Shown: piece after piece, positions 29,938-35,297 of the stretch
Layout of the letters: the number at the start of each line of letters is the position of its first letter
How positions within the stretch are numbered: the first letter of the stretch is position 1
Assembly: GCA_044343155.1 (NCBI GenBank)
Contig: JAVZSS010000003.1
Span: 1 to 35,297 of the forward strand
DNA from: Candidatus Aenigmatarchaeota archaeon
GTDB taxonomy: Archaea; Aenigmatarchaeota; Aenigmatarchaeia; CG10238-14; SpSt-28
Length of the DNA: 35,297 nucleotides
Direction: 5' to 3'
Translations under genes and position numbers: made by a program
The notes under the pieces: model-generated
What the model saw: only the letters and a program-made list of their open reading frames with translations
What the model was told of the DNA's origin: nothing
Database searches by the model: none

Positions 29938-30255
29938 ATGAAAAGAGTTAATAGGAAAAAACCTCTATGGCAAAGAAAAATTGCAAAAGAAAGAATAGAA
30001 ATTTTACTAAAATTGGCAGAAAAGGAAATAAAAAATAATCAAGAAAGAAGTAGGAGATATGTTGAATTAGCTAGAATAATTGGAAAAAGATATAACATTA
30101 GATTGACTAAGGAACAAAAATCAAAATTTTGTAAAAAATGTAACACAATTTTAATTCCTGGCTTTACAATGAAAACTTGGTTAGATCCAAAAACAAAAAC
30201 AAAAGTCGTTAAATGCCTATTCTGTAAATATTTATATAGAACACCTTACAAATAA
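29938..30255 (+). CDS. rnp4: RNase P protein component Rpp21
   Basis: IAKERIEIL, RRYVELA, FCKKC...IPG...KCLFC....R.PY. Confidence 0.93.
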   Translation: MKRVNRKKPLWQRKIAKERIEILLKLAEKEIKNNQERSRRYVELARIIGKRYNIRLTKEQKSKFCKKCNTILIPGFTMKTWLDPKTKTKVVKCLFCKYLYRTPYK

Positions 30256-30525: not shown

Positions 30526-31335
30526 ATGTCTCTTGCATCTCAAAAAGTAATGGATGCTCTAAAAACTATTGGACTTAATCTCTATGAAAGAAATATTTGG
30601 ATTGCTCTACTTACTAAAGGAGTAGCTTCGGTTGGGGAGCTAGCAGATTTGTCAGGAGTTCCGAGAAGTAGGGCATATGACATTTTAGAAAGTTTAGCAA
30701 ACAAAGGATTTATCGTTTTACAACCAACAAAACCATTAAAAGCAATTGCCCTTCCTCCAGAAGAAGCTTTAGAAAGAGTAAAGAAGAAAATGGAGGAGAA
30801 TTTAAAAACACAAATAGAAAGAATTGAAGAGTTAAAAGAAAGTCAAGTAATGAAAGAGTTGGTTTCATTATATAAATCTGGAATTAAAACAGTTTCTCCA
30901 GAAGAAATTGTAGGAACACTAAAAGGGGAATCCGTATTTCAACAACTTGAGAGTATGCTAAAAGTAGCAAACAAAAAAATAAGCATACTTACAACTCAAG
31001 AAGGTCTAGAAGTTATTGCTAAAAACCAATTTGAGTTGTTAAAGAAAGCAAAAGAAAGGGGTGTTGACATAAAAATTATAACAACATCTTCGAGCAATAA
31101 AATTAAAGATGAAATAAAAAATTTGTGTGAAATAGCAAAAATTAGAGTAATAAACGAAAAAGAAACGCCAATAAAAGGAGAGTTTGCAATTGTAGATGGA
31201 AAAGAATTTTTAATGAATATATCAAATCCACAAGAAATTTCTTCAAAAATTGCAATATGGACAAAAAGTGATCATGCTGCAAACTTTTTTGAACCAATAT
31301 TTAATTTAATGTGGGAAAAGAGTAAAGAAATTTAA
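30526..31335 (+). CDS. TrmB-family transcriptional regulator
   Basis: GLNLYE, SGVPRSRAYDILESL..KG HTH, coiled coil, C-terminal RGVDIKII/AIVDGKE domain. Confidence 0.92.
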   Translation: MSLASQKVMDALKTIGLNLYERNIWIALLTKGVASVGELADLSGVPRSRAYDILESLANKGFIVLQPTKPLKAIALPPEEALERVKKKMEENLKTQIERIEELKESQVMKELVSLYKSGIKTVSPEEIVGTLKGESVFQQLESMLKVANKKISILTTQEGLEVIAKNQFELLKKAKERGVDIKIITTSSSNKIKDEIKNLCEIAKIRVINEKETPIKGEFAIVDGKEFLMNISNPQEISSKIAIWTKSDHAANFFEPIFNLMWEKSKEI

Positions 31336-33143
31336 AACTTAGGGAGTTTAGAAAGCTCTAGTGGCAAAGAAATTTCTAGTTTTGGATAACCTTCCGTTTT
31401 TTCTTCAATTTCTTTTATTAATTCTTCTATTTTCATTTCTCTAATTTCTTTTCCCCTCTCTCTAACAGAAACAACATTTTTTCTGATTTCTTTTTCTCCA
31501 ATAACAACTATATAGTTTATCCAATTTATTTCGGCATCCCTAATCTTTTTTTCTAAAGTTTCATTCCTATCATCAACTTGAACTCTAATTCTATTATTTT
31601 TAAGTAAAGTTCCTATCTTCAATGCCTCATCTAAAAACTTATTAGAAATTGGTAAAACTCTAACTTGGATAGGAGAAAGCCAAAGAGGAAAACTTTTTTC
31701 TTTGACAGCATTATCTAACAATACATACAAAAATCTTTCAAGACTTCCTAAAATAGCTGAATGTAAAATTATAGGATATTTTATTTTCCCATTTTCATCT
31801 ATATATTTAATTCCGAATCTTTCTGCATTTCCAGTATCAATTTGTACAGTCCCTATTTCTCTTGCTCTACCTAATTCATCAATGATGTGATATTCTATAT
31901 TTAAAGTCCAGTAATATTTAATGCCTGAAGGATAAACACACATTAATATTGGTCCATTTTCTCTTTCCAAGAGTTTATTGAAAAACTCTTTATTATTTTC
32001 ATAAAAATCAAAAGAAGAAAGGTTATACAAAGAAACATATTTTCTACCCAACTTTTCCATTTCTCTATGAATTATATCATGCAAAAGTAAAAACATTTGT
32101 TTAGCTTCTTCCATATCTTTACAAAAAACATGCAAATCTGGCATCCAGAATTTTCTCATTCTAAAACAAAGCAAAGTTTCTCCAGATTGCTCAAATCTAT
32201 AACTATCGGCTATTTCAAACATTCCAAATGGTAAGTTTTTATAGCTAATTTGCCAGTCTTTTGCAATTGAAAATTGTTGAAAACATGCTGCATATCTCAT
32301 AACAAGCTTTCTATCTTCAGCTTCGACCATGTACATTCTTTGACCGAAAAGAGAAGCGTGCTCAGCAATGGCTTTTTGCTTTAAATCAAACATATTAGTT
32401 CCTTTAACAAAATATACTGGAAATGGTAATTTTTTAACTATACTAGAAACATATTCTGCTAATAAGTCCATAATAAAAGAAGCATAAGGTCCATATCTCA
32501 TATGTCCTATATCCGAAAATTCCTCCCACTCTATTCCAATTCTTTTTCCTATTTCCAAATAACTTGGTTTAGGATTTTCTTTTCCTTTAATGTCAAAAGC
32601 CTCTTGCTCAACAAGTATTTTAAATTCTTTTTCATTTTCCTTAAAATTATAATCTTTAACATCTAAAAGTTTGCCCTCCTTAGTTAAAACAAAATATTTC
32701 TTTTCTATCTTTTTTTCTTCAACTTTTTCTTTAATTTTTTTAATATCTTTAAGTTGCTCTGCTAAAGAATGTCCTTTGATAGAAAAAGATAATTTTTTGG
32801 TCCAACCAAATGGAGCTCTATAAACCTCTATTCCTCTCTCTTTCCCAAATTCCTCCATCTTTTTTAAAATTTGTAAAGAAGAAACAGGATCCGCTAAATC
32901 TTTTGATAGATGTGCATATGGATATATTAAAATTTTTTTTAATCCAAGTGCATCTAAACTCTTACATATTTCCTCTATTGCGAATTTTGCTACACTTATA
33001 TCATCTCCTTTTTCTACTGATGTCAAAAGAACTAAAATGTTTTCAAATCTATTTTTTTCTTTCTTTGTTTCTTCTGCTAAACCTATTTCTTCTTTAACTG
33101 GCTCATATTCTATCCAATCTACGTGTAATTGAAGGATTTTCAT
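31332..33143 (-). CDS. thrS: Threonyl-tRNA synthetase with archaeal N-terminal editing domain
   Basis: MKILQLH, YPYAHLS, RAPFGW editing domain; RYAAC, MPDLH and ILH Zn ligands; PLWLSPIQVRV. Confidence 0.97.
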   Translation of the reverse strand: MKILQLHVDWIEYEPVKEEIGLAEETKKEKNRFENILVLLTSVEKGDDISVAKFAIEEICKSLDALGLKKILIYPYAHLSKDLADPVSSLQILKKMEEFGKERGIEVYRAPFGWTKKLSFSIKGHSLAEQLKDIKKIKEKVEEKKIEKKYFVLTKEGKLLDVKDYNFKENEKEFKILVEQEAFDIKGKENPKPSYLEIGKRIGIEWEEFSDIGHMRYGPYASFIMDLLAEYVSSIVKKLPFPVYFVKGTNMFDLKQKAIAEHASLFGQRMYMVEAEDRKLVMRYAACFQQFSIAKDWQISYKNLPFGMFEIADSYRFEQSGETLLCFRMRKFWMPDLHVFCKDMEEAKQMFLLLHDIIHREMEKLGRKYVSLYNLSSFDFYENNKEFFNKLLERENGPILMCVYPSGIKYYWTLNIEYHIIDELGRAREIGTVQIDTGNAERFGIKYIDENGKIKYPIILHSAILGSLERFLYVLLDNAVKEKSFPLWLSPIQVRVLPISNKFLDEALKIGTLLKNNRIRVQVDDRNETLEKKIRDAEINWINYIVVIGEKEIRKNVVSVRERGKEIREMKIEELIKEIEEKTEGYPKLEISLPLELSKLPKF

Positions 33144-33179
33144 ATAAACACCTCCTTAGAGAAAAGAATAAGAAAAAAT

Positions 33180-33209
33180 TTAAATGAATGTTTGTTGATC
33201 CCCTACCAT
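33180..33209 (-). other. Putative leaderless leader peptide MVGDQQTFI upstream of thrS
   Basis: ATG 29 nt after the start of AATATAAA (33238); Thr codon at position 7; AAACATT..TTTA can pair with TAAGGAGGTGTTT (33158-33146). Confidence 0.45.
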
Positions 33210-33382
33210 TATATTCTATTACTTTTTCTATTTATATTGTTTTTCTTAATTAAACTTTCTAAATATTTTATTTTTTCTTGCCAAAACCTAACTTCTTTTA
33301 AAGTCCTTGAAGAAAATAGAGCTTCTTTTGCGAATTCTAGTTCTTGATACAAATTATCCTTAATTAAGTCTTTACCCTTCAT
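33209..33382 (-). CDS. 57-aa hypothetical protein MKGKDLIKDNLYQELEFAKEALFSSRTLKEVRFWQEKIKYLESLIKKNNINRKSNRI
   Basis: Below ORF-track cutoff; AAAGC-TTATATA promoter starts 29 nt upstream of ATG; amphipathic helical pattern. Confidence 0.65.
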   Translation of the reverse strand: MKGKDLIKDNLYQELEFAKEALFSSRTLKEVRFWQEKIKYLESLIKKNNINRKSNRI

Positions 33383-33468: not shown

Positions 33469-34890
33469 ATGAAGCTACAAAAGCTTTTAAAAGAAATACT
33501 AAAAGAAATTTCACCATCTAAAAAAACTGAAATTTATTTAAAATCTTTAGCTAAAAAAACTTTGAAAATTGCTAAGACTATTGCAAAAAAATATAATGCT
33601 GAGGCTATGTTAGTTGGAAGTATAGTTAGAAATACTTGGCTTCCCGATAAAAAAGAATTTGATGTTTTTATTTTATTTCCAGAAAATCTCAGTGCAAACC
33701 AATTAGAAGAATATGGATTAAAGATTGGGAAAGAAATAGTTAAGAAACTAAATGGAGAATTTTTTTTAAAATACGCACAACATCCCTATGTTTCTGCAAG
33801 AGTTAATGATGTAGAAATAGATATAGTTCCTTGTTATAAAATAAAAGATCCTAAAAATCTAAAAAGTGCAGTTGATAGAACACCATTTCATGTAAAATAC
33901 CTAAACAAAAAAATAAATAAAAAACTTGCTGGTGAAGTTAGACTCTTAAAAAAATTCTTAAGAGAACATTCTTTATATGGTGCTGATGCAAAAACAGAAG
34001 GTTTTTCTGGCTATCTTTGTGAACTTCTTATAATAAAATATAAATCTTTTCTAAATCTTTTAAAAGAATGTCAAAAATGGAAATTGGGAGAAATAATTGA
34101 TTTAGAAAATTACTACAAAAAAGAAGATTATTTAGTTTTAAGAAAAATTTTTTTCAAACAGCCTTTAATTGTTATTGACCCCACTGATAAAAATAGAAAT
34201 GTTGCTGCTGCTTTGACTTTGGAAAATTTTTTCAAATTTAAAAAAATTGCAAAAGAATTTTTACTAAATCCTTCAAAAGAAACATTCTATGGAGAAAAAA
34301 ACAAATATTTAACAGATATAGAACTTTCTAGACTGAAATTCTCTAGAGAAACTGAATTTATAGCAATCAAATTTATTCCACCAAAAATATCATCAGACAT
34401 TCTTTGGCCTCAGCTAAGAAAATTTGCAGAAAGAATAAAAAATATTTTAGAAGAAAGAAAATATGAGTTTAAAGTATTTGGATATTGCGTTTATACAGAT
34501 GAAAAAGATTTGGCTTTAGTTTTTCTTGAAATGGAAATATACAATCTTCCCAAAATTCAAAAGCTAATTGGACCTTATGTTTTTGATGAGGAAAATTCAA
34601 AAAGATTTTTAGAAGCGCATAAAGAATGTTTAAATGGTCCATATATAGAAAATGAAAGGTGGGTTGTTGAAGTTGAAAGAAAGTTTAAAAACGCGAGAGA
34701 AAAAATAATTGATAGTTTAAGTAAAAGTGTAGAAATACTAAAAGCAAAAGGTATACCAAATTATATAGCAGAAGCATTATCAAAAGGTTTTGAAGTTTTA
34801 GATTCTAAAAACATAGAAAAGCTTTTAATTGAAAGAAGAGATGTTGGCGAGGCTTTATACAAATATTTCTATAAACAAAAACTAGTATAA
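33469..34890 (+). CDS. cca: Archaeal class I CCA-adding enzyme
   Basis: VGS..RNTWL...EFDVF, YAQHPYV, DIVPC, SAVDRTPFH, GFSGYLCELL, DPTD..RNVAAA. Confidence 0.97.
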   Translation: MKLQKLLKEILKEISPSKKTEIYLKSLAKKTLKIAKTIAKKYNAEAMLVGSIVRNTWLPDKKEFDVFILFPENLSANQLEEYGLKIGKEIVKKLNGEFFLKYAQHPYVSARVNDVEIDIVPCYKIKDPKNLKSAVDRTPFHVKYLNKKINKKLAGEVRLLKKFLREHSLYGADAKTEGFSGYLCELLIIKYKSFLNLLKECQKWKLGEIIDLENYYKKEDYLVLRKIFFKQPLIVIDPTDKNRNVAAALTLENFFKFKKIAKEFLLNPSKETFYGEKNKYLTDIELSRLKFSRETEFIAIKFIPPKISSDILWPQLRKFAERIKNILEERKYEFKVFGYCVYTDEKDLALVFLEMEIYNLPKIQKLIGPYVFDEENSKRFLEAHKECLNGPYIENERWVVEVERKFKNAREKIIDSLSKSVEILKAKGIPNYIAEALSKGFEVLDSKNIEKLLIERRDVGEALYKYFYKQKLV

Positions 34891-34893
34891 GTT

Positions 34894-35297
34894 ATGATAG
34901 TTTTATATTTTTTAGGAACTGTTTCTGGAATACCGTCAAAAGATAGGAATCATCCAGCTATTGCTTTAGAATATCATTACTATAGAAAGGAAACACTTTT
35001 ATTTGATTGTGGAGAAAACACTCAAAAACAACTCATGATTTCTAAAATAAGTTTCATGGATATAGATAAAATTTTTATAACTCATTGGCATGCAGACCAT
35101 TTTGCTGGACTAATTCCTCTTCTTCAAACCATGAATATTGAAAAAAGAAAAAAAGAGTTGAAAATATTTGCTCCTGAAGCTACAAGGTTCGTTAAAAATA
35201 TATTAAGTTTGGGATATTTTGGTTTACGTTTTCCTATAACTCCAATAGATGTTCCTTTTGAAGGTAATCAAATAACAAAAATATTTGAAACAAAAGA
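34894..35297 (+). CDS. rnz: Ribonuclease Z (partial, runs off the window end)
   Basis: MIVLYFLGTVSGIPSKDRNHPA, LFDCGENTQ, IFITHWHADHFAGL. Confidence 0.92.
   Translation, partial: MIVLYFLGTVSGIPSKDRNHPAIALEYHYYRKETLLFDCGENTQKQLMISKISFMDIDKIFITHWHADHFAGLIPLLQTMNIEKRKKELKIFAPEATRFVKNILSLGYFGLRFPITPIDVPFEGNQITKIFETK

What the first reader, a model, noticed from the sequence alone, without database searches (positions are those of the whole stretch)
33141..33244. Parallel leader architecture upstream of thrS, with Thr at codon 7
Seen in sequence (minus strand): AAAAAC-AATATAAA is followed 29 nt later by ATG GTA GGG GAT CAA CAA ACA TTC ATT TAA (MVGDQQTFI*). Like the serS leader it reads M-V-x-x-x-Q(CAA)-cognate residue, then a U-rich spacer containing TTTTCTTA, then a full AGGAGGTG SD. 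AAACAUU, which includes the Thr codon, can pair with GGUGUUU, and UUUA with UAAG, covering the SD. Two unlinked synthetase genes sharing spacing, codon position and anti-SD logic is the main argument against chance. The function is inference. The U-tract could also allow transcriptional attenuation.
Basis: partly seen in the sequence, partly recalled or inferred. Interest (0 to 1): 0.82.

Follow-up and report, generated by a model that had tools for sequence, protein, structure and literature searches.

The report
Cognate-codon frameshift leader before thrS
A tiny conserved reading frame ahead of the threonyl-tRNA synthetase gene of this DPANN archaeon carries one threonine codon at a fixed place, and sister versions with Ser, Ile, Val, Phe and Asn codons precede the matching genes, so it looks like a ribosome-read amino-acid sensor that probably works by reading-frame slippage.

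Summary
The 9-codon micro-ORF (33209-33180, minus strand, MVGDQQTFI*) sits where a leaderless start is predicted. It is conserved upstream of thrS in 28 of 72 relatives examined in this Aenigmatarchaeota order and in 8 of 29 Micrarchaeota loci, always with ACA. The same scaffold (M-x-G-[E/D/G]-x-[CAA/GAA/CGG/UGG]-X) precedes serS, ileS and valS. An unbiased pattern search found it before thrS, ileS, valS, pheS and an AsnRS-like gene, and X matched the gene in 22 of 22 cases.

New here: the +1 frame runs open from the sensor codon to a stop at the main start codon (thrS 20 of 20 distinct leaders, ileS 19 of 19, valS 13 of 13; shuffles expect about 40%), or it is fused in frame to the enzyme.

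With the SD-like GGUGR four bases upstream of an XYY P-site codon, this resembles the RF2-type autoregulatory frameshift. My best reading is that a hungry cognate codon makes the ribosome slip, translate through the leader and start the synthetase. That step is inferred, and no transcript or protein data exist.

Interest is high: I found no description in print.

The parts
33231..33244 (-). Promoter-like element: A-rich BRE-like AAAAAC plus TATA-like AATATAAA, 21 nt upstream of the micro-ORF ATG
   Evidence: A position weight matrix built from 183 SD-less genes of this genome (TATA at -28..-23, A at -10/-9, T at -1) scores best within 200 nt upstream of thrS at -67. That is 1 nt from the micro-ORF ATG at -66 (score 6.5, above 99.7% of all ATGs). 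Inferred, no transcript data.
33180..33209 (-). Zero-frame micro-ORF MVGDQQTFI* (predicted leaderless)
   Evidence: Conserved as M-x-G-[D/E/G]-x-[Q/E/R]-T upstream of thrS in 28 of 72 regions. ATG in frame 0 in 25 of 28 plus GTG in 3, and none in frames +1/+2. In-frame stop a median of 2 codons after the Thr codon, against 21.5 and 8 in the other frames.
33199..33204 (-). SD-like purine block AGGGGA (GGUGR in most relatives), 4 nt upstream of the P-site codon
   Evidence: Complementary to the 16S rRNA 3' end ...GGAUCACCUCCUUAA found in contig C29. A role as frameshift stimulator is inferred by analogy with RF2 (passages of PMC5009743).
33192..33194 (-). Codon 6, CAA: the P-site codon when the sensor is in the A site; XYY type (CAA/GAA/CGG/UGG in relatives)
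   Evidence: CGG is 0.4% of Arg codons in this genome yet invariant in 19 of 19 ileS cassettes.
33189..33191 (-). Sensor codon ACA (Thr), codon 7
   Evidence: ACA in 28 of 28 and 8 of 8 thrS cassettes. The codon at this position matches the downstream gene in 22 of 22 cassettes found by pattern search.
33140..33190 (-). +1 frame open stretch HSFKFFLILFSKEVFI* with no start codon before the SD; its UGA overlaps the thrS AUG (AUGA)
   Evidence: Translate; coordinates. The same arrangement holds in 20 of 20 distinct thrS leaders (first +1-frame stop at -15..+1 of the main start), against 7.4 expected from shuffles.
33159..33179 (-). U/C-rich spacer ATTTTTTCTTATTCTTTTCTC carrying the recurrent TTCTTATTC-like motif
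   Evidence: Related motifs occur in valS/ileS leaders (TTATTTAC) and in Micrarchaeota (CTCTTTTTATT). Function unexplained: stop-free +1 frame, oligo-U terminator or an internal TATA box.
33149..33156 (-). Shine-Dalgarno AGGAGGTG of thrS
   Evidence: Only 10 of 698 crude gene calls have this full SD with an ATG start.
31332..33143 (-). thrS, archaeal-type threonyl-tRNA synthetase (603 aa)
   Evidence: Pfam tRNA-Thr_ED 1.8e-40, tRNA-synt_2b 2.7e-23, HGTP_anticodon 8.3e-22.
22938..22961 (+). Sister cassette of serS: MVFQRQS*, sensor TCC at 22956-22958. The -1/+2 frame is open from 22955 to a TAA at 23021-23023, 3 nt before the serS ATG (23027)

Best explanation
The micro-ORF is the zero-frame part of a ribosome-read sensor of threonyl-tRNA(Thr) that feeds back on thrS. 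Proposed chain: a transcript starts at or next to the micro-ORF's AUG (leaderless). A ribosome translates M-V-G-D-Q-Q and reaches the single Thr codon ACA with CAA in the P site, while the SD-like AGGGGA/GGUGR four bases upstream can pair with the 16S 3' end. If Thr-tRNA is plentiful, ACA is decoded and the ribosome stops two codons later, 36 nt short of thrS. If Thr-tRNA is scarce, the A site stays empty and the P-site tRNA slips +1 (CAA-A to AAA). The ribosome then reads the +1 frame, which is free of stops, through the U/C-rich spacer and the SD. It terminates on the UGA that overlaps the thrS AUG (AUGA), and re-initiation or SD unmasking raises ThrRS synthesis. Shown here: the conserved micro-ORF, the cognate-codon rule across six amino acids, the fixed SD-like/P-site/sensor geometry, the open +1 frame ending at the main start or fused to the enzyme, and tandem cassettes. 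Inferred: transcription start, translation, slippage, direction of regulation.
For: (1) Conservation. Cassette upstream of thrS in 28 of 72 regions of the order, plus five family-f5 leaders lying more than 300 nt upstream (L256, L258-L261), plus 8 of 29 Micrarchaeota loci.

(2) ORF character. In-frame start codon in 28 of 28 core motifs, against 1 of 8 core motifs genome-wide, that one being the thrS site. Indels between start and sensor come in threes. GTG-start variants carry an AGGTG SD 6 nt upstream (L070, L071, L073, L254). The in-frame stop is close.

(3) Cognate rule. serS has CAA-TCC in 9 of 30 loci. ileS has CGG-AT[T/C/A] in 19 of 30. valS has [C/T]GG-GT[A/C] in 14 of 30. The pattern ATGNNNGGTGRNNNNCGG over 117 genomes gave 35 hits against 16 for the reversed control. 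Among the 30 loci fetched, the codon after CGG matched the downstream gene in 22 of 22 with an identified synthetase-type gene: ThrRS 5, IleRS 4, ValRS 9, PheRS-alpha 3, class-II AsnRS-like core 1. An Ile cassette also precedes a LeuA/CimA-family gene.

(4) Frame evidence. The first +1-frame stop after the sensor lies within -20..+15 of the main start, or the frame runs on into the enzyme, in thrS 20 of 20 distinct leaders (shuffle expectation 7.4), ileS 19 of 19 (8.1) and valS 13 of 13 (5.6). The other non-zero frame gives 1, 5 and 7. In valS of genus g1 (L229, L230, L232), ileS of g17 (L277, L280, L281), the LeuA/CimA-like gene (L270), the AsnRS-like gene (L285) and a tRNA_edit gene (L282), the +1 frame is the enzyme's own frame.

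(5) After a GTA sensor the next base is always C or T, 11 of 11, which keeps UAA/UAG out of the +1 frame.

(6) Family f5 has a second cassette (Q-G-E/G-C/R-Q/K-T) exactly in the +1 frame of the first, and the next +1 step enters the operon's first ORF.

(7) P-site codons are XYY. G000 encodes tRNA-Arg(UCG), for which CGG-A to GGA improves the wobble pair.

(8) Precedent. RF2 autoregulatory +1 frameshifting with a 5' SD stimulator, and hungry-codon frameshifting (passages of PMC5009743). ATGA/TGATG coupling in archaea (PMC6728339, abstract in the listing).

(9) The promoter matrix places the predicted start at the micro-ORF ATG for thrS, serS and ileS.
Against: There is no transcript, ribosome or peptide evidence.

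In this window alone the +1 frame is open for only 16 codons in a U/C-rich spacer, and shuffles keep it open in roughly 4 of 10 trials. The case therefore rests on the comparative set, whose members are related and not independent.

Re-pairing after +1 always loses the first codon position, and it is poor for CGG-U (pheS).

serS and the Micrarchaeota thrS need the other frame (-1 or +2), with a mid-codon mismatch (C-CAA to CCA). The Micrarchaeota result is weak (8 of 8 against 5.0 expected).

In most cassettes GGUGR puts a GUG in the +1 frame at bases 8-10, so that frame could be entered by initiation instead of slippage. This is not so in this window (GGG) nor in L002/L003 and L005 (GCG).

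The thrS SD is the strongest type in the genome, so independent initiation is likely. TATA-like sequences between micro-ORF and SD could give a second promoter.

There is one sensor codon only. ARAGORN found only 23 tRNA genes and no tRNA-Thr(UGU) in this 86%-complete assembly.
Confidence: 0.55

Rival explanations
1. Classical translational attenuation without frameshifting. A ribosome stalled at ACA covers or remodels RNA that otherwise sequesters the thrS SD, or it shields the 5' end from 5'-3' decay.
For: The cognate-codon micro-ORF and its predicted 5'-terminal position fit equally well. In this window's leader, masking a footprint at codon 7 raises the SD-window unpaired probability from 0.18 to 0.54. 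In genus g17 an anti-SD helix GAUUACCA/UGGUGAUU is conserved. Precedent: abstract of 10.1101/834739.
Against: Over 21 leaders the SD opening is absent (0.33 to 0.36). There is no consensus structure in the genus. The 12 nt 5' of the sensor are not more complementary to the downstream leader than shuffles are (mean z -0.18, -0.28, +0.60, -0.25). The fold of this leader has z -0.52. The model does not explain the open +1 frame ending at the start codon, the in-frame fusions, the XYY codons, GTA-Y, or the tandem +1 cassettes.
Confidence: 0.2
2. Two overlapping reading frames with separate starts. The AUG micro-ORF is a decoy or gate, and the +1 frame is entered by initiation at the GUG inside GGUGR (bases 8-10), which then couples to, or simply is, the synthetase ORF.
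For: A GUG sits in the +1 frame in most cassettes. It opens the long ORF in L270, L277, L280, L281, L282, L285 and the f5 operons, and in f5 the micro-ORF stop overlaps a GUG (GUGA).
Against: This window has GGG at that place, L002/L003 and L005 have GCG, and ileS of genus g1 has no start there. A ribosome stalled at the sensor would cover that GUG, so starvation would switch the gene off, which is the wrong sign for homeostasis. The model gives no reason for the XYY codon or for a cognate sensor.
Confidence: 0.12
3. An untranslated RNA or DNA element: a T-box-like leader that pairs its codon with the tRNA anticodon, a ThrRS-binding tRNA mimic as in E. coli thrS, or a transcription-factor site.
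For: The codon-swap logic resembles T-box specifier codons. ACA, TCC and CGG are fixed at the third base beyond what codon usage predicts. Micrarchaeota leaders hold a covarying hairpin around the micro-ORF stop and a strongly conserved downstream block.
Against: No Rfam family matches at gathering or E-value thresholds. There is no conserved fold. The leaders are only 59-135 nt. Start codon, frame-preserving indels, nearby in-frame stop, synonymous Ile (ATT/ATC/ATA) and Val (GTA/GTC) sensors and GGN variation all point to decoding. No NGU anticodon-like loop is conserved. A DNA site cannot explain matching codons in six systems.
Confidence: 0.06

Closest known systems
Bacterial release factor 2 (RF2) autoregulatory +1 programmed frameshift
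   Same: A short zero-frame ORF. An A-site codon whose decoding speed depends on the product of the regulated gene. An internal Shine-Dalgarno stimulator just 5' of the shift codon. The productive frame is +1. In some lineages here the enzyme is itself in the +1 frame (passages of PMC5009743).
   Different: The sensor is a sense codon read by the synthetase's product (aminoacyl-tRNA), not a stop codon. The shift codon is CAA/GAA/CGG/UGG rather than CUU_U. In this window the +1 frame does not encode the enzyme but ends on its start codon (AUGA). The system is archaeal, predicted leaderless and modular across at least six amino acids. It is untested.
Hungry-codon frameshifting (Gallant) and the yeast Ty1 site CUU_AGG_C
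   Same: [quoted passage not shown]
   Different: Those cases are adventitious or serve retroelement expression. Here the site would be a conserved regulatory device on synthetase genes.
Leader-peptide attenuation, including mycobacterial leaderless polycysteine short ORFs
   Same: A short 5' ORF, here predicted leaderless, whose translation reports the supply of one amino acid to downstream genes (abstract of 10.1101/834739).
   Different: There is a single sensor codon in a fixed scaffold, not a run of codons. No conserved terminator/antiterminator or SD-sequestering switch was found. An open alternative frame links sensor and gene.
T-box riboswitches of bacterial aminoacyl-tRNA synthetase genes
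   Same: One leader scaffold re-used for many synthetase and amino-acid genes, with specificity set by one swappable codon.
   Different: T-boxes are about 200-nt structured RNAs that bind uncharged tRNA without a ribosome. Here there is no Rfam match and no conserved structure, the leader is 59-135 nt, and the codon lies in frame in an ORF.
Translational coupling by termination-reinitiation at ATGA/TGATG overlaps
   Same: The +1 frame ends in AUGA (12 of 21 thrS leaders) or UGAUG (4 of 21) at the main start. Such overlaps couple translation in archaea and bacteria (PMC6728339, abstract in the listing).
   Different: The upstream 'gene' here has no start codon of its own in this window and would be reached only by frameshifting.

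Membership tests
RF2-type autoregulatory +1 frameshift cassette | Short zero-frame ORF that ends soon after the shift site | tested here: met
   In-frame stop a median of 2 codons after the sensor in 28 thrS cassettes; within 4 codons in 18 of 21 ileS and 9 of 10 serS motif hits.
RF2-type autoregulatory +1 frameshift cassette | Slow-to-decode A-site codon whose decoding depends on the regulated gene's product | tested here: met
   The sensor codon is cognate to the downstream synthetase in 22 of 22 pattern-found cassettes and in the thrS, serS, ileS and valS sets. That it is slow under starvation is inferred.
RF2-type autoregulatory +1 frameshift cassette | Internal SD-like stimulator at a fixed short distance 5' of the shift codon | tested here: met
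   GGUGR (AGGGGA in this window) lies exactly 4 nt before the P-site codon in the thrS, valS, pheS and Asn cassettes. It is complementary to the 16S 3' end in C29. It is weak or absent in ileS of genus g1.
RF2-type autoregulatory +1 frameshift cassette | P-site codon able to re-pair in the +1 frame | tested here: inconclusive
   Codons are XYY (CAA, GAA, CGG, UGG), so two of three positions can re-pair for Z = A or G. Re-pairing is poor for CGG-U (pheS) and CAA-U (serS, which uses the other frame). tRNA modifications are unknown.
RF2-type autoregulatory +1 frameshift cassette | New frame open and leading to the functional product | tested here: met
   The +1 frame is open to the main start, or fused, in 20 of 20 thrS, 19 of 19 ileS and 13 of 13 valS leaders, against 7.4, 8.1 and 5.6 expected.
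RF2-type autoregulatory +1 frameshift cassette | Trans-frame product or frameshift efficiency shown experimentally | not testable with these tools
   No RNA or protein data; the three metatranscriptome runs laid gave no reads.
Leader-peptide attenuator | Translated short ORF in the 5' leader carrying codons for the regulating amino acid | tested here: met
   Translation itself is inferred.
Leader-peptide attenuator | Mutually exclusive RNA structures (terminator/antiterminator or SD sequestering) selected by ribosome position | tested here: not met
   No consensus structure in the genus. No general SD opening. No excess complementarity. A lineage-specific anti-SD helix exists in g17 only.
T-box riboswitch | Stem I with specifier loop plus T-box/antiterminator; match to the Rfam model | tested here: not met
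   No T-box hit at gathering threshold in the window, nor at E up to 10 in 33100-33300.
E. coli-type thrS operator (tRNA-Thr anticodon-arm mimic bound by ThrRS) | Hairpin loop displaying an NGU anticodon-like triplet next to the SD | tested here: not met
   The only GGU-like element (codon 3) varies as GGG/GGC/GGT. No conserved hairpin.
Leaderless mRNA | Transcript 5' end at the start codon | tested here: inconclusive
   The promoter matrix predicts a start 0-2 nt from the micro-ORF ATG for thrS, serS and ileS. No 5'-end data.

The most novel reading that the evidence does not exclude
DPANN archaea (Aenigmatarchaeota and at least one Micrarchaeota lineage) use a modular, T-box-like 'specifier codon' system that is executed by the ribosome itself. 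A 6-7 codon leaderless cassette (SD-like block, slippery XYY codon, one cognate sensor codon) senses the charging of a single tRNA species. By programmed frameshifting it autoregulates at least thrS, ileS, valS, pheS and serS, plus Asn- and Ile-pathway genes. In some lineages the synthetase can only be made as a trans-frame fusion. This would be the first regulatory frameshift and the first synthetase control circuit described in Archaea.
Probability: 0.45. Interest if true: 0.95.

Novelty: new variant of a known kind. Interest (0 to 1): 0.9.

Why it matters
As far as my searches show, nothing is known about how archaea match aminoacyl-tRNA synthetase levels to demand, and archaea lack T-boxes. 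A 2021 review records only one programmed frameshift in Archaea, fucA1 (PMC8211752, abstract and passages).

This leader family gives a directly testable answer: a roughly 20-nt cassette whose specificity is set by one codon.

It has practical consequences too. Synthetase genes fused in the +1 frame (valS, ileS and others) will be mis-started or called broken by annotation pipelines. The cassettes can be used to predict the amino-acid specificity of neighbouring genes of unknown role, such as the tRNA_edit protein behind a Val cassette or the AsnRS-like core behind an Asn cassette. They are also very compact candidate amino-acid sensors for synthetic biology.

Tried and rejected
1. It is not conserved, and the fold is not better than shuffles.

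2. Stall-opens-SD model. Partition-function folding of 21 thrS leaders free, with a footprint at the sensor, and with a footprint at the stop gave mean SD-window unpaired probabilities of 0.33, 0.36 and 0.47. There is no general effect.

3. Three-segment switch (micro-ORF purines / pyrimidine tract / SD). Duplex energies against shuffled controls gave mean z -0.18 (thrS), -0.28 (Micrarchaeota thrS), +0.60 (serS) and -0.25 (ileS). It was seen only in some lineages (g17, L122, g15).

4. Consensus structure. alifold gave 0.0 for genus g1 thrS leaders and weak values elsewhere.

5. Rfam. Only the archaeal SRP RNA at gathering threshold. In the leader, only chance matches with E above 5.

6. Oligo-U transcription attenuation. 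It could not be tested. T-runs after the micro-ORF are frequent but not universal.

7. Expression. No RNA holder was listed. Three metatranscriptome runs of the same study were offered and laid on window:32650-33650; 0 reads were laid in each. That is no test either way.

8. Control gene. Micro-ORFs before the SD-led EF-1alpha gene are not conserved in 14 family loci (MILSI*, none, MFKTTI*, MVKLSI*...) and overlap a TATA-like box.

9. tRNA complement. ARAGORN found 23 genes only in this 86%-complete assembly, so no conclusion on isoacceptors.

10. Literature. Seven full-text searches found no paper describing leader ORFs or frameshifting on archaeal synthetase genes. Subscription journals are not covered.

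Rows dropped before counts:
- L010, L026-L030: thrS N-terminus missing or split.
- L231: my start call fell inside the cassette.
- L121 and L127: CGGATA hits without a start codon, counted among the 21 motif hits but not among the 19 ileS cassettes.
- Leaders longer than 170 nt (g43 and L038) were left out of the frame statistics.
- Identical leaders were counted once.


Full report
WHAT THE WINDOW IS. The window is contig C23 of a 608,795-bp, 34-contig, 28% G+C assembly that is 86% complete. It encodes an archaeal SRP RNA. Its closest named relatives are MAGs titled Candidatus Aenigmatarchaeota. The gene at 33143-31332 (minus strand) is an archaeal-type threonyl-tRNA synthetase. serS lies at 23027-24310. 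In a crude gene call, 446 of 698 genes have no SD-like sequence and only 10 carry the full GGAGGTG-type SD with an ATG; thrS and serS are among those 10. For 183 SD-less genes with at least 45 nt of upstream spacer, the upstream profile shows a TATA signal at -28..-23, A at -10/-9 and T at -1. Most genes are therefore predicted leaderless.

THE OBSERVATION. The promoter matrix built from the leaderless genes gives its best score within 200 nt upstream of thrS at -67, serS at -91 (and -89), and ileS at -67/-66. The three micro-ORF ATGs lie at -66, -89 and -66. The micro-ORFs thus sit where leaderless start codons sit.

CONSERVATION. ThrRS was found in 75 of 117 genomes of the order. I read 72 upstream regions.
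- 28 carry [ATG/GTG]-(0-1 codon)-GGN-GNN-NNN-[CAA/GAA/CGG]-ACA. They span families f1, f2, f5 and f6 and follow different upstream neighbours: the 57-aa ORF in this genus, tRNA genes elsewhere.
- All 28 core motifs have an in-frame start. In the whole G000 genome the core occurs 8 times, and only the thrS copy has a start.
- ATG occurs 9-27 nt upstream of the sensor in frame 0 in 25 of 28 (GTG in the other 3) and never in frames +1 or +2.
- The in-frame stop follows the Thr codon by a median of 2 codons, against 21.5 and 8 in the other frames.
- GTG-start versions have an AGGTG SD 6 nt upstream.
- A Micrarchaeota lineage has M-x-x-G-R-x-F-Q(CAA)-T(ACA)-A-C-x-* in 8 of 29 loci; one of them has a TAA at codon 6.
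- One member of this genus (G008) lacks the thrS, serS and ileS cassettes and has leaderless genes instead.

THE COGNATE-CODON RULE.
- serS: 9 of 30 loci have ATG-G[T/C]G-N9-CAA-TCC. TCC is only 5.5% of Ser codons here.
- ileS (identified by TIGR00392): 19 of 30 loci have a short ORF with CGG-AT[T/C/A]. CGG is 0.4% of Arg codons.
- valS: 14 of 30 loci have M-x-G-[E/D/G]-x-[CGG/TGG]-GT[A/C]. G000's own valS is leaderless.
- Unbiased test. I searched the order for ATGNNNGGTGRNNNNCGG and found 35 hits against 16 for the reversed pattern. For the 30 loci returned I compared the codon after CGG with the downstream gene: ACA with ThrRS 5 times, ATC with IleRS 4, GTA/GTC with ValRS 9, TTC with PheRS-alpha 3, and AAT with a 319-aa class-II core (PF00152 only) once. 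That is 22 of 22.
- Of the remaining 8 loci, L256 is a thrS-operon leader cut by a TnpB-like ORF. L270 is an Ile cassette before a LeuA/CimA-family gene, with ileS about 1.6 kb further on. L282 is a Val cassette before a tRNA_edit-domain protein. Five lie inside long ORFs or before nothing recognisable, which is the chance level indicated by the control.
- The micro-ORFs before the EF-1alpha gene, used as a control, are not conserved.

WHAT DOES NOT HOLD. The genus has no consensus fold, and the window's leader folds no better than shuffles. A ribosome footprint at the sensor does not open the SD in general. The segment under that footprint is not unusually complementary to the downstream leader. 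No Rfam family matches.

THE NEW FEATURE. Leader lengths differ widely (66 to 135 nt) yet are multiples of three in 16 of 21 thrS and 14 of 19 ileS leaders.
- In every one of the 21 thrS leaders the +1 frame has no stop from the sensor until a stop at +1 (the UGA of AUGA/GUGA, 12 leaders), -2 (UGAUG, 4), -3 to -7 (4) or -15 (1) relative to the main start. Frame 0 stops at the micro-ORF stop, and frame +2 stops are scattered.
- ileS gives 19 of 19 within -20..+14. valS gives 10 within -14..+8 plus 3 in which the +1 frame is ValRS's own frame and the main ATG has no SD.
- Shuffling the spacer predicts 7.4 of 20, 8.1 of 19 and 5.6 of 13.
- In the pattern-found set, the +1 frame runs straight into IleRS (L277, L280, L281), the LeuA/CimA-like gene, the tRNA_edit gene and the AsnRS-like gene.
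- After a GTA sensor the next base is C or T in 11 of 11, which avoids UAA/UAG in the +1 frame.
- Family f5 leaders carry a second cassette (Q-G-E/G-C/R-Q/K-T-x3-F-*) exactly in the +1 frame of the first. One further +1 step enters the first ORF of the thrS operon.
- serS (7 of 9) and the Micrarchaeota thrS (8 of 8) use the other frame. These have C before CAA. The one serS leader with A before CAA (L084) uses +1.
- In this window the +1 frame reads HSFKFFLILFSKEVFI* and ends on the UGA overlapping the thrS AUG. It contains no start codon before the SD.

MECHANISM. The constant parts all lie 5' of or at the sensor: an SD-like GGUGR (AGGGGA here), complementary to the 16S 3' end found in C29; four bases; an XYY codon; and the sensor. 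Everything 3' varies except that one frame stays open. This is the anatomy of an A-site-dependent shift site.
- RF2 genes use a short zero-frame ORF, a 5' SD stimulator, a shift codon and an A-site codon read by the gene's own product (passages of PMC5009743).
- Hungry codons promote +1 slippage and one-tRNA -1 slippage.
- ATGA/TGATG overlaps couple translation in archaea (PMC6728339, abstract in the listing).

I therefore propose that low Thr-tRNA leaves ACA unread, the CAA-bound tRNA slips to AAA, and the shifted ribosome crosses the leader and hands over at the thrS start. With ample Thr-tRNA the ribosome stops two codons later. This gives the homeostatic sign, which the overlapping-start alternative does not. 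It remains an inference. The weak points are listed in the Against line: imperfect re-pairing, the other frame used in serS, a GUG in the +1 frame in most cassettes, a strong thrS SD, a possible internal promoter, the modest significance of any single leader, and related sequences.

COMPARISON AND NOVELTY. In logic it works like a T-box (one scaffold, swappable specifier codon). In mechanics it works like RF2 or antizyme (frameshifting as both sensor and effector). In placement it works like the mycobacterial leaderless sensory ORFs (abstract of 10.1101/834739). It fails the defining tests for T-boxes and for structure-switch attenuators. It meets five of six testable features of an RF2-type cassette; re-pairing is inconclusive. 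Seven literature searches found no description. A 2021 review lists a single programmed frameshift in Archaea. I rate it a new variant of a known kind with high interest. The conserved cognate-codon cassette is near certain. Sensing by the ribosome is likely. Frameshifting is the best-supported effector step, at about even odds.

Noticed in passing
L258-L261 and L256 (family f5 thrS operons): Two Thr cassettes in tandem, the second in the +1 frame of the first. The micro-ORF's UGA also overlaps a GUG (GUGA) that opens a roughly 90-aa ORF (weak DUF1699 hit, E 7e-4), which precedes thrS.
   Followed up: partly
L035-L039, L048, L050 (genus g43 and L038): The thrS cassette lies about 276 nt upstream, ahead of a 57-aa ORF ending ...GRPNLIERLIK that overlaps the thrS start (ATGA). 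The small protein's function is unknown.
   Followed up: partly
L270 (G038:C2, about 462980-464496): The Ile cassette MTGEYRIGLDKSTSL* is fused in the +1 frame to a 504-aa HMGL-like/LeuA_dimer enzyme (LeuA/CimA family), with ileS about 1.6 kb downstream. So the cassette is also used on an amino-acid pathway gene.
   Followed up: partly
L282 (G116:C34) and L285 (G061:C54): A Val cassette precedes a free-standing tRNA_edit (PF04073) protein. An Asn cassette (MKGEYRN*) precedes a 319-aa class-II synthetase core lacking an anticodon-binding domain (AsnRS/AsnA-like).
   Followed up: partly
L269, L272, L273 (genus g15 pheS): The Phe cassettes (MTGERRF...) are separated from pheS by unrelated +1-frame ORFs of 56, 160 and 115 aa. 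One has a DGNHR motif, which I recall as ParB-like. They look like insertions riding in the shifted frame.
   Followed up: no
window 33209-33382 (-): A 57-aa ORF with no Pfam hit, conserved in the genus (..FWQEKI..). Its TAA overlaps the micro-ORF ATG (TAATG) here but not in relatives. The predicted micro-ORF promoter lies in its last codons.
   Followed up: partly
window 33159-33179 (-) and leaders of relatives: A recurrent T/C-rich motif follows the cassettes: TTCTTATTC in thrS, TTATTTAC...CCTAAATT in valS/ileS, CTCTTTTTATT..TTCCAATAGTAGC in Micrarchaeota. It could be a stop-free spacer, an oligo-T terminator or a second TATA box. Unexplained.
   Followed up: partly
L182-L189 (Micrarchaeota thrS leaders): The micro-ORF stop codon sits in the loop of a hairpin whose stem covaries (CGCUCC/GGAGCG, GCGCC/GGCGC, GGCG/CGCC). 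L185 has a TAA at codon 6 of the micro-ORF.
   Followed up: partly
G000 contig C16:3644-6052 (-): An 802-aa S-layer-type protein (TIGR01564) with a strong SD and a leader containing a perfect 11-bp hairpin (GCCTTGTACGC...GCGTACAAGGC) and a 22-codon ORF. Not a synthetase gene.
   Followed up: no
table (genera g2, g15, g10 and others): In several relatives ThrRS is split into a separate editing-domain gene (about 135-170 aa) and a catalytic gene, sometimes far apart.
   Followed up: no
window 20608-20881 (+); 33469-34890 (+); 34894-35295 (+); 29938-30255 (+): Archaeal SRP RNA; a CCA-adding enzyme divergent from the 57-aa ORF/thrS unit; an ORF whose HWHADH motif I recall as the metallo-beta-lactamase type of RNase Z (not scanned against any family library) running off the window; an RNase P Rpr2/Rpp21 subunit. 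The neighbourhood is rich in tRNA-related genes.
   Followed up: no
G000 ileS leader, contig C32 (upstream of 14277, minus strand): Besides the cassette promoter, the promoter matrix gives a second, weaker hit (4.3) that would start a transcript 2 nt before the ileS ATG. This suggests a basal leaderless transcript in parallel with the cassette transcript.
   Followed up: no
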